Shown here: piece after piece, positions 31,170 to 32,197 of the stretch | Layout: each line of letters begins with the position of its first letter | How positions within the stretch are numbered: the first letter of the stretch is position 1 | Translations under genes and position numbers: made by a program | Source of the DNA: Thermoproteota archaeon | Lineage (GTDB): Archaea > Thermoproteota > EX4484-205 > JAAOZP01 | Assembly (NCBI GenBank): GCA_038861395.1 | Contig: JAWCDE010000002.1 | Coordinates: 34,437-98,436 of the forward strand | Reading direction: 5' to 3' | Length of the DNA: 64,000 bases | The notes under the pieces: generated by a model | Told to the model about the DNA's origin: nothing | Seen by the model: only the letters and a program-made list of their open reading frames with translations | The model's database searches: none

Positions 31170-32197
31170 TTACAATCCCTCGGGGCCAAGGTATACGGTG
31201 TCCTCAGCGTCGGGACCAGTGCCAACTATGGTGACTGGCACTCCCGTTTCATCCTGAATCTTCTTGAGGAAATCTATGCATTCTCGGGAGAGAGACTCCC
31301 TCCTCCTGGCTTTGGAGCACTCTGGGAAAAGAACATCCACCTTGGTTACTGCTATCTGCGTAGCTCCATTAACCCTGGCTGCACGTTTAGCCATCTGGAA
31401 ATTGAATGGCGCAGCCCTCCTGAGCCTGCCTGTTACAGTACCCCTTTCCACAAAGCCTCTTTTCTCAGCCTCTTCAGGAGAAAGCTCGTTCTCAAGAGGC
31501 CCTTTGCCTACTCTTGTCACAAAGCTTTTTAGAACAAGCATGACTTCGTCAACCTTTTTCGGACTTACTCCAACTTCGCTGCAGACTGCTGCAGCAGTAG
31601 TGTCCCTCCCAGTTACGTACGGATATGTACCGTGGTAGAGGCTTAGGTAGAAGCCTTGCGTACCCTCTAGGTGAATCGTCTCCCCCCTGTCTAGTGCAGA
31701 GTTAACTTCTTCAGAAGCATCCGTAACATATTTTTTCAGCTCGGGCAGGTCTCTGACGAGCTTTGCCTTCCTAGCAACCCTGTCTATGAGAGCGGGGGAA
31801 ACACCCGTGCCGGTGGTGCCTATGAACTCCCTGAAAAAGTCACTACCCCTGTCAGCATCAATATGCTTCTGCTCGATTACAGAAGCCTTCTCGTCGATGA
31901 ATACTCTTCCCTCGACGCCGAGCGCCTCAACCTCGCTCATAAACACTTTAGGGTCTACGTTAGCCCCAGCACCTATAAGCAGTCTTGTCTCAGGAACCAG
32001 GAATGCACTCGGTACTATTCTAAGCCTGTATGTATTACCCTTGTAAACTACGGTGTGGCCAGCGTTTACAGAACCGACTCTCACAGCTATCTTCGGACGC
32101 TCCTTAAGTGCCAGGAATGCGGCGACTTTTCCTTCTAGGGACCTTCGACCGGTTTTCCCTCGTCGCCGAAGAATCCTGACACTATTACTGTAAGCAT
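31170..32197 (-). CDS. purA: adenylosuccinate synthetase, reading frame interrupted by a 20-nt insert (candidate mRNA intron; alternatively frameshifted pseudogene)
   Basis: ATG 32197 encodes MLTVIVSGFFGDEGK and then hits UAG. The body (31170..32132) encodes [29 protein letters not shown]...GTTGTGVSP...GTVTGRLRR in the other frame. Removing 20 nt restores GDEGKGK and gives a 335-aa archaeal-type PurA. The ORF-track version (GTG 32084) lacks the P-loop. Confidence 0.8.
32135..32154 (-). other. 20-nt insert in purA with bulge-helix-bulge-like fold (candidate BHB intron)
   Basis: mRNA: GGCGAC G [AGGG](AAA)[ACC]GGUCGAA[GGU][CCCU](AGA)AGGAAAA GUCGCC. It has a 4-bp central helix and a 3-nt bulge closed by a 3-bp helix. 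The second cleavage site lies 2 nt 3' of the helix. An exon-exon helix flanks the motif. The excised segment is equivalent to 32133..32152 because of the flanking A residues. Confidence 0.5.

What the first reader, a model, noticed from the sequence alone, without database searches (positions are those of the whole stretch)
32112..32197. purA is interrupted inside its P-loop codons by a 20-nt insert that folds as a BHB-like splicing motif: candidate archaeal mRNA intron
Seen in sequence (minus strand):
- ATG 32197 encodes MLTVIVSGFFGDEGK and the frame ends at UAG five codons later.
- The remaining 320 codons of adenylosuccinate synthetase ([29 protein letters not shown]... to 31170) are in the -1 frame. 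That frame has no start codon before GTG 32084, which would delete the GTP-binding P-loop.
- Removing exactly 20 nt (CCGGUCGAAGGUCCCUAGAA, 32133..32152, equivalently 32135..32154) yields [14 protein letters not shown]. This is the canonical GDEGKGK loop, in a 335-aa protein colinear with archaeal PurA.

The RNA folds as GGCGAC-G-[AGGG]-(AAA)-[ACC]-GGUCGAA-[GGU]-[CCCU]-(AGA)-AGGAAAA-GUCGCC:
- a 4-bp central helix;
- a 3-nt bulge closed by a 3-bp helix;
- the other site in an open bulge;
- a perfect 6-bp exon-exon helix (32162..32167 / 32121..32126), plus CAGGA/UCCUG (32174..32178 / 32112..32116) further out.

Cutting after the second nucleotide 3' of the central helix on each strand is the canonical geometry for the archaeal splicing endonuclease, as I recall it. 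Doing so removes exactly the frame-restoring 20 nt.

Established knowledge: BHB introns in protein-coding genes are known for cbf5 in some Crenarchaeota. I know of no purA case.

Alternatives: the same spot contains a -1 slippery heptamer G_GGA_AAA, or the gene may be a pseudogene.
Basis: partly seen in the sequence, partly recalled or inferred. Interest (0 to 1): 0.85.

Follow-up and report, generated by a model that had tools for sequence, protein, structure and literature searches.

The report
Spliced mini-intron inside archaeal purA gene
The gene for an essential purine-synthesis enzyme (PurA) in this hot-spring archaeon is broken inside its GTP-binding loop by a 20-base insert that has all the marks of a tRNA-type intron cut out of the messenger RNA; this would be only the second archaeal protein-coding gene family known to carry such an intron.

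Summary

- **The gene.** purA lies on the minus strand at 32197..31170. Its frame breaks after GDEGK. Removing 32154..32135 (20 nt) restores a 335-aa PurA with the canonical GDEGKGK loop.
- **The fit to geometry.** Those boundaries are the ones set by archaeal splicing-endonuclease geometry: a cut after the 2nd nucleotide of each 3-nt bulge flanking a 4-bp helix.
- **Weakness of one copy.** A single such motif is weak evidence, because about 1 per 88 nt arises by chance.
- **Comparative support.** 22 purA loci in at least four Thermoproteota lineages carry an insert at the same codon (Brockarchaeota-like, Nezhaarchaeota, two unnamed clades). There are 15 distinct insert sequences, of 16, 17, 20, 21 or 22 nt. 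All 18 distinct variants I parsed fit the same architecture and regenerate GDEGKGK under the same cutting rule.
- **Covariation.** All inner-helix pairs show compensatory changes.
- **Rivals excluded.** Frameshifting is excluded: one insert has a -1-frame stop, the 21-nt insert is in frame with a stop, and different lineages would need different shifts. A pseudogene is excluded by dN/dS of 0.04–0.08.
- **In-genome control.** A tRNA-Pro gene in the same window has two 16–17-nt introns of the same architecture.
- **Novelty.** I found no published purA case; cbf5 is the only known precedent.
- **Gap.** Splicing itself remains untested.

The parts
32229..32234 (-). TTTATA box-like element about 35 nt upstream of the ATG; candidate archaeal promoter for purA (inferred)
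   Evidence: Read directly from the sequence. The same GCTTTATACT stretch is present upstream in L001, L002 and L007. Not tested further.
32155..32197 (-). purA exon 1: ATG...GAGGGAA. It holds codons 1-14 plus the first nucleotide of Lys15 (MLTVIVSGFFGDEG-K).
   Evidence: The exon-1 reading frame and peptide are conserved in all intron-bearing relatives. Exon 1 is almost frozen at synonymous sites in intron-bearing genomes only.
32135..32154 (-). 20-nt intron AACCGGUCGAAGGUCCCUAG. It contains the frame-0 stop UAG.
   Evidence: The boundaries come from BHB geometry, a cut after the 2nd nucleotide of each bulge. They equal one of the three frame-restoring deletions. Homologous inserts of 16-22 nt sit at the same site in 21 other loci.
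31170..32134 (-). purA exon 2, from A|GGAAAAGUC... to the stop codon. It supplies the last 2 nt of Lys15 plus 320 codons.
   Evidence: dN/dS is 0.04-0.08 against relatives. Pfam PF00709 E = 9.8e-73 for the spliced product.
32157..32160 (-). Central helix H, 5' strand AGGG (exonic; codons Glu13/Gly14)
   Evidence: Pairs with CCCU at 32140..32137. GGG/CCC is invariant in 14/14 sequences, and the A-U pair is present in 10/14. RNAalifold predicts it independently.
32154..32156 (-). 5' bulge B1, AAA. Predicted cleavage lies between 32155 and 32154.
   Evidence: A closed 3-nt bulge between H and h' in every variant.
32141..32153 (-). Inner hairpin h': ACC / GGU, closing the 7-nt loop GGUCGAA
   Evidence: The first three pairs are paired in 14/14 sequences, with 6, 2 and 5 double compensatory changes. 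The loop varies freely in sequence and length (3-7 nt).
32137..32140 (-). Central helix H, 3' strand CCCU (intronic)
32134..32136 (-). 3' splice-site trinucleotide B2, AGA. Predicted cleavage lies between 32135 and 32134. It is the first 3 nt of a 10-nt internal-loop strand, so the motif is the relaxed bulge-helix-loop form.
   Evidence: ARA is conserved in all variants (AGA or AAA). It is not a closed bulge in the MFE fold.
32162..32168 (-). Exon-exon helix, 5' strand CGGCGAC; pairs with 32126..32120
   Evidence: In the MFE and in all 6 Brockarchaeota-like folds. 85.7% of cells are paired across 14 sequences, but these positions are constrained by coding.
32120..32126 (-). Exon-exon helix, 3' strand GUCGCCG
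32174..32183 (-). Outermost exon-exon helix, 5' strand AGUGUCAGGA; pairs with 32116..32107
   Evidence: In the MFE and retained in all 6 Brockarchaeota-like folds. It lies in the synonymous-site-frozen zone.
32107..32116 (-). Outermost exon-exon helix, 3' strand UCCUGGCACU

Best explanation
purA (adenylosuccinate synthetase) of this Brockarchaeota-like archaeon carries a 20-nt intron (32154..32135, minus strand) within the Lys15 codon of the P-loop motif GDEGK|GK.

Proposed mechanism:
- The pre-mRNA folds so that exonic AGGG pairs with intronic CCCU, forming the 4-bp central helix.
- A 3-nt AAA bulge and a 3-bp hairpin define the 5' site.
- The 3' site (AG|A) lies at the symmetric position in an internal loop. 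This is a relaxed bulge-helix-bulge, or 'bulge-helix-loop', motif. It is held together by two exon-exon helices.
- The archaeal tRNA-splicing endonuclease (EndA) cuts after the second nucleotide 3' of the central helix on each strand.
- An RtcB-type ligase joins the exons to give ...GAG GGA A|AA GGA AAA..., which encodes a normal 335-aa PurA.
- Unspliced mRNA terminates translation at a stop codon inside the intron, yielding only a 20-aa peptide.

Shown here:
- the anatomy of the motif;
- the exact coincidence of geometric and frame-restoring boundaries;
- conservation and covariation across lineages;
- purifying selection on both exons;
- RNA-level constraint on the exon flanks;
- introns of the same architecture and size in a tRNA gene of the same genome.

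Inferred: that EndA and RtcB actually perform the reaction in vivo.
For: 1. Boundaries. The geometry rule (PMC2738675) predicts exactly the 20 nt whose removal restores GDEGKGK. The single-sequence coincidence has P of about 0.003.

2. Conservation with variable length.
- 22 loci carry an insert after the same codon, with 15 distinct insert sequences.
- Lengths are 16 nt (L058, L169), 17 nt (L150, L081, L175), 20 nt (window, L001, L002, L007, L088, L168, L087, L174), 21 nt (L082, L170-173) and 22 nt (L083-86).
- All fit [AGGG](AAA)[h' 3-5 bp]loop[h'][CCCU/A/C](ARA). In each of the 18 distinct variants parsed, the same cut rule regenerates GDEGKGK. L150 was parsed by hand.

3. Covariation.
- All 5 h' pairs change on both sides, and pairs 1-3 are paired in 14/14 sequences.
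- The covariation score is 0.266 against 0.139 in shuffles (0/500 reach it).
- Sliding the partner columns by +/-1 drops pairing from 83% to about 47%.
- RNAalifold finds H and h' on its own.

4. Not a pseudogene. Exon 2 dN/dS is 0.04-0.08 at dS 0.46-1.9, and the exon-1 peptide is conserved.

5. RNA-level constraint on exon flanks only where the intron exists.
- In the first 30 codons of intron-bearing genes, 8 codons are synonymously variable and 15 are identical, against 154/22 in the rest of the gene (Fisher p = 1.3e-7).
- Intronless relatives show 19/9 against 159/60 (p = 0.66).

6. Stop codons. Every insert contains a frame-0 stop. Three sister variants use UGA, UAG and UAA at the same codon position.

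7. In-genome control. tRNA-Pro(GGG) at 21496..21389 has 16-nt and 17-nt inserts with the same motif at non-canonical positions. The same cut rule gives a 75-nt tRNA that ARAGORN accepts.

8. Fold stability. z is -3.1 to -4.8 in the six Brockarchaeota-like sequences.
Against: - No transcript, protein or enzymatic evidence exists. No spliced-form protein of an intron-bearing species was present in the protein collection. The clusters contain only 5'-truncated calls.
- The 3' site is not a closed 3-nt bulge, and no helix directly abuts it in the window's fold. The motif is therefore non-canonical and needs a broad-specificity endonuclease, whose presence in this genome I could not check.
- The fourth pair of the central helix is A.A or A.C in 4 of 14 sequences.
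- In the Nezhaarchaeota and L081/L169 lineages, the motif is not the thermodynamic MFE at 37 C and the z-scores are unremarkable.
- The loose motif is frequent by chance.
Confidence: 0.86

Rival explanations
1. Programmed -1 ribosomal frameshifting on the G_GGA_AAA heptamer, stimulated by the downstream hairpin, produces a PurA with a 7-residue insertion (GDEGK-TGRRSLE-GK).
For: A canonical X_XXY_YYZ heptamer sits in the right frame immediately 5' of a stable structure. In the window the -1 frame is open through the insert. One gene caller produced a 366-aa -1-frame read-through product in a relative (P0008).
Against: - L087, a 20-nt relative, has a UAA stop in the -1 frame inside the insert (GKTV*).
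- The 21-nt inserts of L082/L170-173 are in frame and contain UGA, so no shift helps.
- The 16- and 22-nt inserts need a +1 shift, and the 17- and 20-nt inserts need -1. No single recoding rule fits.
- The would-be inserted peptides vary non-conservatively (TGRRSLE, TFQRSLE, TFKGSLE, TCRGSLE, TAWRSLE).
- A 7-aa insertion would disrupt the GDEGKGK loop seen in all full-length homologs inspected, apart from conservative GDTGKGK variants.
Confidence: 0.03
2. The gene is a pseudogene, or the expressed product is the P-loop-less 304-aa ORF starting at GTG 32084. On this reading the insert is a disabling indel.
For: Annotation pipelines call it this way (304-327-aa proteins in NCBI/JGI records). I could not search the whole genome for a second purA.
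Against: - dN/dS is 0.04-0.08 over 320 codons at saturating dS.
- Exon 1 remains an intact ORF with a conserved peptide in all lineages, and is more conserved than the rest of the gene.
- The 'indel' persists, with conserved structure and covariation, across lineages only 56-64% identical in protein.
- A PurA without the P-loop would lack its GTP-binding loop (established knowledge of AdSS).
Confidence: 0.03
3. Translational bypassing (a ribosome hop, as in T4 gene 60) over the insert, from a take-off codon to a matching landing codon.
For: GGA AAA occurs on both sides of the insert. A stop codon and a hairpin follow the first copy, which resembles gene 60 superficially.
Against: - Hopping GGA->GGA or AAA->AAA would yield GDEGK-VAAF and lose the second Gly-Lys of the conserved GDEGKGK loop.
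- To keep GKGK, the landing triplet would have to be GAA or GAG, which do not match Lys or Gly tRNAs.
- In other lineages the flanking Gly codons differ (GGA versus GGC/GGG/GGU).
- Bypassing does not explain covariation in the hairpin together with an exact 4-bp/3-nt geometry.
Confidence: 0.02
4. Sequencing or assembly artefact.
For: None beyond the general possibility in metagenome assemblies.
Against: The insert is present at the same site in 22 independently assembled contigs from NCBI, ENA, JGI and Logan sources, with lineage-specific sequence differences.
Confidence: 0.005

Closest known systems
cbf5 (aCBF5/dyskerin-homolog) pre-mRNA intron of Desulfurococcales and Sulfolobales (Watanabe et al. 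2002; Yokobori et al. 2009, PMC2738675)
   Same: - Both are short inserts in a protein-coding gene: cbf5 16-44 bp, purA 16-22 nt.
- Both have a relaxed BHB-like fold, with cuts between the 2nd and 3rd bulge residues.
- Both are placed inside the codon of a catalytically essential, highly conserved residue (Asp of Cbf5; P-loop Lys of PurA).
- Lengths may or may not be multiples of three.
- Distribution is patchy, with related intronless lineages.
- Both are routinely mis-annotated as truncations or frameshifts.
   Different: - The gene and pathway differ (purine biosynthesis, not an RNA-modification enzyme).
- The host lineages differ (Brockarchaeota-like, Nezhaarchaeota, unnamed Thermoproteota).
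- The intron lies only 43 nt from the start codon.
- Splicing of cbf5 is shown experimentally. Splicing of purA is not.
Non-canonical-position tRNA mini-introns of Thermoproteota (Marck & Grosjean 2003; Sugahara et al. 2008), including the tRNA-Pro gene in this window
   Same: The same H4-B3-h'3-loop-h'3-H4-B3 architecture and the same size (16-17 nt versus 20 nt). The D-arm intron also lacks an abutting outer helix. Presumably the same endonuclease and ligase act on both.
   Different: The substrate is an mRNA that is being translated. No tRNA body is available for recognition. Half of the motif is dictated by codons.
BHB intron in the 5' UTR of Haloferax volcanii HVO_1309 mRNA (Schwarz et al. 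2020, PMC7714728)
   Same: An mRNA substrate of the tRNA-splicing endonuclease.
   Different: That intron lies in the 5' UTR and does not interrupt the reading frame. It occurs in a euryarchaeon.
IRE1/RtcB-dependent unconventional splicing of HAC1/XBP1 mRNA in eukaryotes
   Same: A protein-enzyme cut-and-ligate removal of a short intron (26 nt in XBP1) changes the reading frame of an mRNA. Ligation is by RtcB in metazoa (own knowledge; context).
   Different: The endonuclease (IRE1) and the recognition motif (twin stem-loops) differ. That splicing is regulatory and stress-induced. No evidence here shows that purA splicing is regulated.

Membership tests
Archaeal BHB/BHL intron (substrate of splicing endonuclease EndA) | Central 4-bp helix | tested here: met
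   AGGG/CCCU in the window. GGG/CCC is invariant in 14/14. The 4th pair is A-U in 10/14 and A.A or A.C in 4/14.
Archaeal BHB/BHL intron (substrate of splicing endonuclease EndA) | A 3-nt bulge at the 5' splice site, closed by a second helix (h') | tested here: met
   An AAA bulge is closed by a 3-5-bp h' in all 18 parsed variants. h' has compensatory changes at all 5 pairs.
Archaeal BHB/BHL intron (substrate of splicing endonuclease EndA) | A 3-nt bulge at the 3' splice site, closed by an outer helix (strict hBHBh' form) | tested here: not met
   In the window, AGA begins a 10-nt internal-loop strand, and the exon-exon helix starts 7 nt further on. The motif is therefore the relaxed HBh'/bulge-helix-loop form. 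That form is described as a competent substrate of CSL/ASL-bearing endonucleases (PMC12397907). In the L082-86 clade an exon-2 hairpin follows the trinucleotide directly.
Archaeal BHB/BHL intron (substrate of splicing endonuclease EndA) | Cleavage between the 2nd and 3rd bulge nucleotides on both strands yields a functional product | tested here: met
   In silico, the rule restores GDEGKGK in each of the 18 distinct variants parsed, for inserts of 16, 17, 20, 21 and 22 nt (L150 by hand). The same rule yields a valid tRNA-Pro from the in-window tRNA gene.
Archaeal BHB/BHL intron (substrate of splicing endonuclease EndA) | Actual cleavage by EndA and ligation by RtcB (spliced RNA exists) | not testable with these tools
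   No transcriptome data are accessible. No spliced-form protein appears in the clusters of intron-bearing species.
Archaeal BHB/BHL intron (substrate of splicing endonuclease EndA) | Host encodes a broad-specificity (alpha-beta)2 or epsilon2 endonuclease | tested here: inconclusive
   endA was not looked for; only a 64-kb window is held. Indirect support comes from a tRNA-Pro gene in the window with two introns at non-canonical positions, one without an outer helix. Only such enzymes are reported to cut these (PMC5829648 abstract).
Adenylosuccinate synthetase (PurA, Pfam PF00709) | Full-length match to the family with the N-terminal GDEGKGK P-loop | tested here: met
   The spliced product matches PF00709 at E = 9.8e-73. 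It is colinear over residues 1-335 with intronless homologs at 81-83% identity.
Programmed -1 ribosomal frameshift site | Slippery heptamer in frame plus a -1 frame that stays open to the downstream ORF in relatives | tested here: not met
   The heptamer is present. However, the -1 frame is closed in L087, the insert is in frame with a stop in L082/L170-173, and other lineages would need a +1 shift.
Translational bypass (gene 60 type) | Matched take-off and landing codons that give the conserved protein | tested here: not met
   Matching codons would delete the second Gly-Lys of the P-loop. The triplet before exon 2 is GAA or GAG.

The most novel reading that the evidence does not exclude
The purA intron may be more than a tolerated passenger. 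It could be an ancient, selectively maintained control point.

- Half of the splice motif (AGGG-AAA) is written by the invariant Glu-Gly-Lys codons of the P-loop. The site is therefore a permanent 'landing pad' that has kept an intron since before these Thermoproteota classes diverged.
- Every intron carries an in-frame stop, so unspliced mRNA is silent.
- Exon ligation by the GTP-dependent RtcB ligase would make synthesis of PurA conditional on GTP supply and on the capacity of the tRNA-splicing machinery. PurA is the GTP-consuming enzyme that commits IMP to AMP.
- This would be an archaeal analogue of HAC1/XBP1-type regulatory mRNA splicing.

The evidence neither shows nor excludes regulation.
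Probability: 0.12. Interest if true: 0.9.

Novelty: new member of a known kind. Interest (0 to 1): 0.72.

Why it matters
- **Rarity.** Since 2002, cbf5 has been the only archaeal protein-coding gene family known to be interrupted by an endonuclease-type (BHB) intron. A 2020 study still lists it as the sole case besides one 5'-UTR intron. A second family shows that mRNA splicing by the tRNA machinery is not a one-gene curiosity. This one is in a core metabolic gene and is conserved across several deep Thermoproteota lineages.
- **Evolutionary data.** It provides a natural series for studying how such introns arise, persist and are lost: five lengths, 15 sequences, and intronless sister lineages.
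- **Mobile-element pattern.** Like cbf5 and like inteins, the intron sits in the most conserved active-site motif. That fits the behaviour of once-mobile elements.
- **Annotation.** These genes are systematically mis-annotated as 5'-truncated proteins lacking the P-loop, in about 20 protein clusters seen here. Metabolic reconstructions could wrongly score purine biosynthesis as defective. Searching for conserved 'truncations' could reveal more hidden mRNA introns.

Tried and rejected
- **Single-sequence motif statistics.** The loose BHB pattern is as common in shuffles as in the window, so it cannot serve as evidence by itself.
- **Other BHB-split genes in the window.** 18 further 'fusions' were found. 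On inspection they are adjacent genes, where the 'intron' contains a ribosome-binding site and a start codon, or chance joins to short upstream frames. The Nop5-like case is explained by a TTG start.
- **Metagenome scan.** It added only two new interrupted loci (L088, L150), because the peptide patterns were specific to the query lineage.
- **Thermodynamic folding of the short Nezhaarchaeota and L081/L169 versions.** It does not recover the motif as the MFE, so I relied on comparative geometry there.
- **Automatic parsing of L150.** The parser picked a spurious alternative. The correct register, [AGGG](AAA)[GGC]UUAG[GCC][CCCC](AAA), was read by hand.
- **ARAGORN on the raw window.** It found no tRNA. 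Rfam was needed.
- **My first reading of the tRNA.** I took it as tRNA-Phe(GAA), which was wrong. After excision it is tRNA-Pro(GGG).
- **Naming the two unnamed intron-bearing clades.** Source records say only 'Thermoproteota archaeon'.
- **Literature searches linking purA or adenylosuccinate synthetase to BHB or splicing endonuclease.** They returned nothing. The library lacks most subscription-journal papers, so absence is not proof.
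Full report
**1. What is in the sequence**

On the minus strand, ATG 32197 opens MLTVIVSGFFGDEGKPVEGP and then hits UAG. The other 320 codons of an adenylosuccinate synthetase lie in the -1 frame and end at 31170. The first start codon in that frame is GTG 32084, which gives the 304-aa ORF that gene callers report (P0001).

Deleting 20 nt gives a 1008-nt ORF. 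Three equivalent positions work: 32154..32135, 32153..32134 and 32152..32133. The 335-aa product reads [14 protein letters not shown]. It matches Pfam Adenylsucc_synt at E = 9.8e-73. It is colinear over residues 1-335 with intronless homologs of 81-83% identity.

From the outside in, the elements are:
- a 10-bp helix (32183..32174 / 32116..32107);
- a 7-bp helix (32168..32162 / 32126..32120);
- the 4-bp helix AGGG/CCCU;
- a 3-nt AAA bulge;
- a short hairpin ACC-GGUCGAA-GGU.

All coordinates were re-extracted and verified.

**2. Geometry**

[quoted passage not shown] Applied here, that rule cuts AGGG-AA|A and CCCU-AG|A. It removes 32154..32135, which is one of the three frame-restoring deletions.

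The 5' site is a proper closed bulge. The 3' site is the first trinucleotide of a 10-nt internal-loop strand. The motif is therefore the relaxed HBh' or 'bulge-helix-loop' type. Endonucleases bearing the Crenarchaea-specific or ARMAN-specific loop are reported to accept that type (PMC12397907; PMC5829648 abstract).

**3. Is it more than chance?**

A loosely defined motif (H of 4 bp, two 3-nt positions, h' of at least 3 bp, loop of 3-12 nt) is common. It occurs 1453 times on both strands of the window, against 1636 +/- 28 in dinucleotide shuffles. The motif alone therefore proves nothing.

A motif of exactly 20 nt at a given position has P of about 0.001. The coincidence with the frame-restoring deletion is about 0.003 for this one sequence. 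That is suggestive but not decisive.

**4. Comparative evidence**

*Source organism.* The window is Brockarchaeota-like. The nearest genome loci are L001 (92%), L007 (88%, 'Candidatus Brockarchaeota' JZZ.bins.4) and L002 (87%).

*Distribution.* Among the top 120 homologous protein clusters, about 20 lack the P-loop because they were called from a downstream start, and one is a 366-aa -1-frame read-through. Twenty-two loci carry an insert directly after the same codon, with 15 distinct insert sequences:
- 20 nt in the Brockarchaeota-like group (window, L001, L002/L174, L007/L088, L168, L087);
- 16 and 17 nt in two Nezhaarchaeota-type genomes (L058, L150);
- 16, 17 and 17 nt in one unnamed Thermoproteota clade (L169, L081, L175);
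- 21 and 22 nt in another unnamed clade (L082/L170-172, L173; L083-85, L086).

*One rule fits all.* Every insert fits [AGGG](AAA)[h' 3-5 bp]-loop-[h'][CCCU, CCCA or CCCC](AGA or AAA). In each of the 18 distinct variants parsed, cutting after the second nucleotide 3' of the central helix on both strands regenerates GDEGKGK (L150 by hand). The loops differ freely in sequence and length (3-7 nt), which is why the insert length and the required 'frame correction' differ between lineages.

*Intronless relatives.* Close relatives have an uninterrupted GAGGG(A/G)AAGGG(G/A)AAG at this site. These are L003-L006, L014 and L089-91, at 81-83% identity and partly also labelled Brockarchaeota.

**5. Covariation**

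The analysis used a 14-sequence MAFFT alignment with the gaps confined to the loop (A1).
- All five h' pairs show changes on both sides.
- The first three h' pairs are paired in 14/14 sequences (GC:8/AU:6; CG:12/GC:2; CG:8/GC:4/UA:1/UG:1).
- GGG/CCC of the central helix is invariant. Its outer A-U pair is present in 10/14 sequences.
- The overall covariation score is 0.266 against 0.139 in shuffles (0/500 reach it).
- Sliding the 3' partners by one column drops pairing from 83% to about 47%.
- RNAalifold, given no structure, predicts the same H and h' helices.

**6. Rivals**

*Frameshifting.* The G_GGA_AAA heptamer exists, but frameshifting is excluded as the mechanism.
- L087 has a UAA in the -1 frame inside its 20-nt insert (GKTV*).
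- The 21-nt inserts are in frame and contain UGA.
- The 16- and 22-nt inserts would need +1, and the 17- and 20-nt inserts would need -1.
- The hypothetical inserted peptides are not conserved.

*Pseudogene or P-loop-less product.* This is excluded.
- dN/dS is 0.04-0.08 over exon 2 at dS 0.46-1.9.
- The exon-1 ORF and peptide are conserved in every lineage.

*Ribosome hopping.* Hopping between matching GGA or AAA codons would delete the second Gly-Lys of the P-loop. The triplet preceding exon 2 (GAA or GAG) matches neither tRNA.

*Assembly artefact.* This is excluded by 22 independent assemblies from four sources.

**7. Additional signatures**

*(a) RNA-level constraint on the exon flanks.* Among the six Brockarchaeota-like intron-bearing genes, the fraction of same-amino-acid codon pairs that differ is 0.06 in the 15 exon-1 codons. 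It is 0.24 in the next 15 codons and 0.40-0.64 elsewhere. Among eight intronless relatives it is 0.28 and 0.23, against 0.18-0.42 elsewhere.

Per codon, intron-bearing genes show 8 variable and 15 identical codons in the flanks against 154/22 in the rest (Fisher p = 1.3e-7). Intronless genes show 19/9 against 159/60 (p = 0.66).

The exon sequence that forms the two outer helices is thus frozen at the nucleotide level only when the intron is present. That is what is expected if those helices present the splice sites.

*(b) In-frame stops.* Every insert carries a frame-0 stop. The sister variants L082, L083 and L086 use UGA, UAG and UAA at the same codon of an otherwise different loop. This suggests selection for aborting translation of unspliced mRNA.

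*(c) Fold stability by lineage.* In the L082-86 clade, H and h' are in the MFE. They are flanked by an exon-1 hairpin abutting H and an exon-2 hairpin directly after the 3' trinucleotide. In the Nezhaarchaeota and L081/L169 versions, which have 3-bp h' helices, the motif is not the 37 C MFE. This is a real weakness of the purely thermodynamic view.

**8. In-genome control**

Rfam finds a 108-nt tRNA gene at 21496..21389 with two inserts. ARAGORN misses it. My scan finds two perfect motifs of the same architecture:
- a 16-nt insert in the D-arm (21481..21466), which has no abutting outer helix;
- a 17-nt insert in the anticodon loop (21443..21427).

Excising both by the same rule gives a 75-nt sequence that ARAGORN calls tRNA-Pro(GGG). 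This organism must therefore process mini-introns of this size and relaxed form at non-canonical positions. That is indirect evidence for a broad-specificity endonuclease.

**9. Distribution and origin**

In a rough NJ tree of PurA (296 columns), the intron-bearing genes fall into four groups:
- a Brockarchaeota subclade plus L087;
- the P0038-P0057 clade;
- the P0022-P0030 clade;
- a separate Nezhaarchaeota pair.

Intronless sequences are interleaved with them. This fits an old intron with several losses, but repeated gain or transfer is not excluded.

The exonic half of the motif (AGGG-AAA) is fixed by the invariant Glu-Gly-Lys codons. This may explain both the persistence of the intron and any recurrent acquisition at this spot (inference).

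Placement in the most conserved catalytic motif parallels cbf5, whose intron disrupts the catalytic Asp codon. It also parallels inteins. The same window holds an SMC-like gene with an intein-like insert in its Walker A motif.

**10. Comparison with what is known, and novelty**

The mechanism is the known archaeal endonuclease/ligase pathway. The closest precedent is the cbf5 intron (16-44 bp, relaxed BHB, Desulfurococcales and Sulfolobales).

A 2020 paper states that cbf5 is the only additional BHB intron reported in archaeal mRNAs, besides its own 5'-UTR case (PMC7714728). Yokobori et al. note that no splicing was confirmed for any gene other than cbf5.

Full-text searches combining adenylosuccinate synthetase or purA with BHB, intron or splicing endonuclease returned nothing. 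Searches for Brockarchaeota introns and for recent surveys also found no such report. The library is incomplete, so I rate this 'new member of a known kind' rather than claim absolute priority.

**11. Verdict**

What is missing is any direct RNA, protein or enzymatic evidence.

Noticed in passing
window 21389..21496 (minus strand); inserts at 21481..21466 and 21443..21427: A tRNA-Pro(GGG) gene carries two mini-introns: 16 nt in the D-arm and 17 nt in the anticodon loop, both at non-canonical positions. ARAGORN misses the gene. Rfam finds it. Excision by the BHB rule gives a canonical 75-nt tRNA.
   Followed up: yes
window 9845..13792 (+), insert at about 9995..10477: An SMC-like ATPase ORF has a mini-intein-like insert of about 161 aa within its Walker A motif (GRNGSGK|C...VHN|S). 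The Pfam Intein_splicing score is 32.9 bits, just below the 35.8 cut-off. SMC_N and AAA_23 match on either side.
   Followed up: partly
public records of relatives (e.g. MGC9013445.1, HYA21581.1, MGQ9596237.1; proteins P0001-P0057): Intron-bearing purA genes are annotated as 5'-truncated 304-327-aa 'adenylosuccinate synthetase' lacking the P-loop, or as a 366-aa -1-frame read-through (P0008). About 20 of the top 120 protein clusters are affected.
   Followed up: partly
L082, L083, L086, L173 (insert loops): Every purA insert has an in-frame stop. Closely related 21/22-nt variants use UGA, UAG and UAA at the same third codon of the insert although the loop sequence differs. This suggests selection to terminate translation of unspliced mRNA.
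   Followed up: partly
L082, L170, L083, L086 (about 30 nt on each side of the insert): In this clade the exons do not pair with each other. Instead, each forms its own hairpin. One abuts the central helix and the other starts right after the 3' splice trinucleotide. This may mimic the missing outer helix of a strict BHB.
   Followed up: no
window about 51063 (+): The Nop5/Nop56-like gene appears to start at a TTG codon (M-EEYLSLVETPAGLIVF...). A BHB-scan 'fusion' here is spurious.
   Followed up: yes
window 28120..34411 and loci L087, L168, L174: The gene order is conserved: Hel308-like helicase, CdvA, purA, DUF72, CCA-adding enzyme. In the other intron-bearing clades, purA instead sits next to purB and either CdvA or the rpl22-rps3 ribosomal protein cluster.
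   Followed up: no
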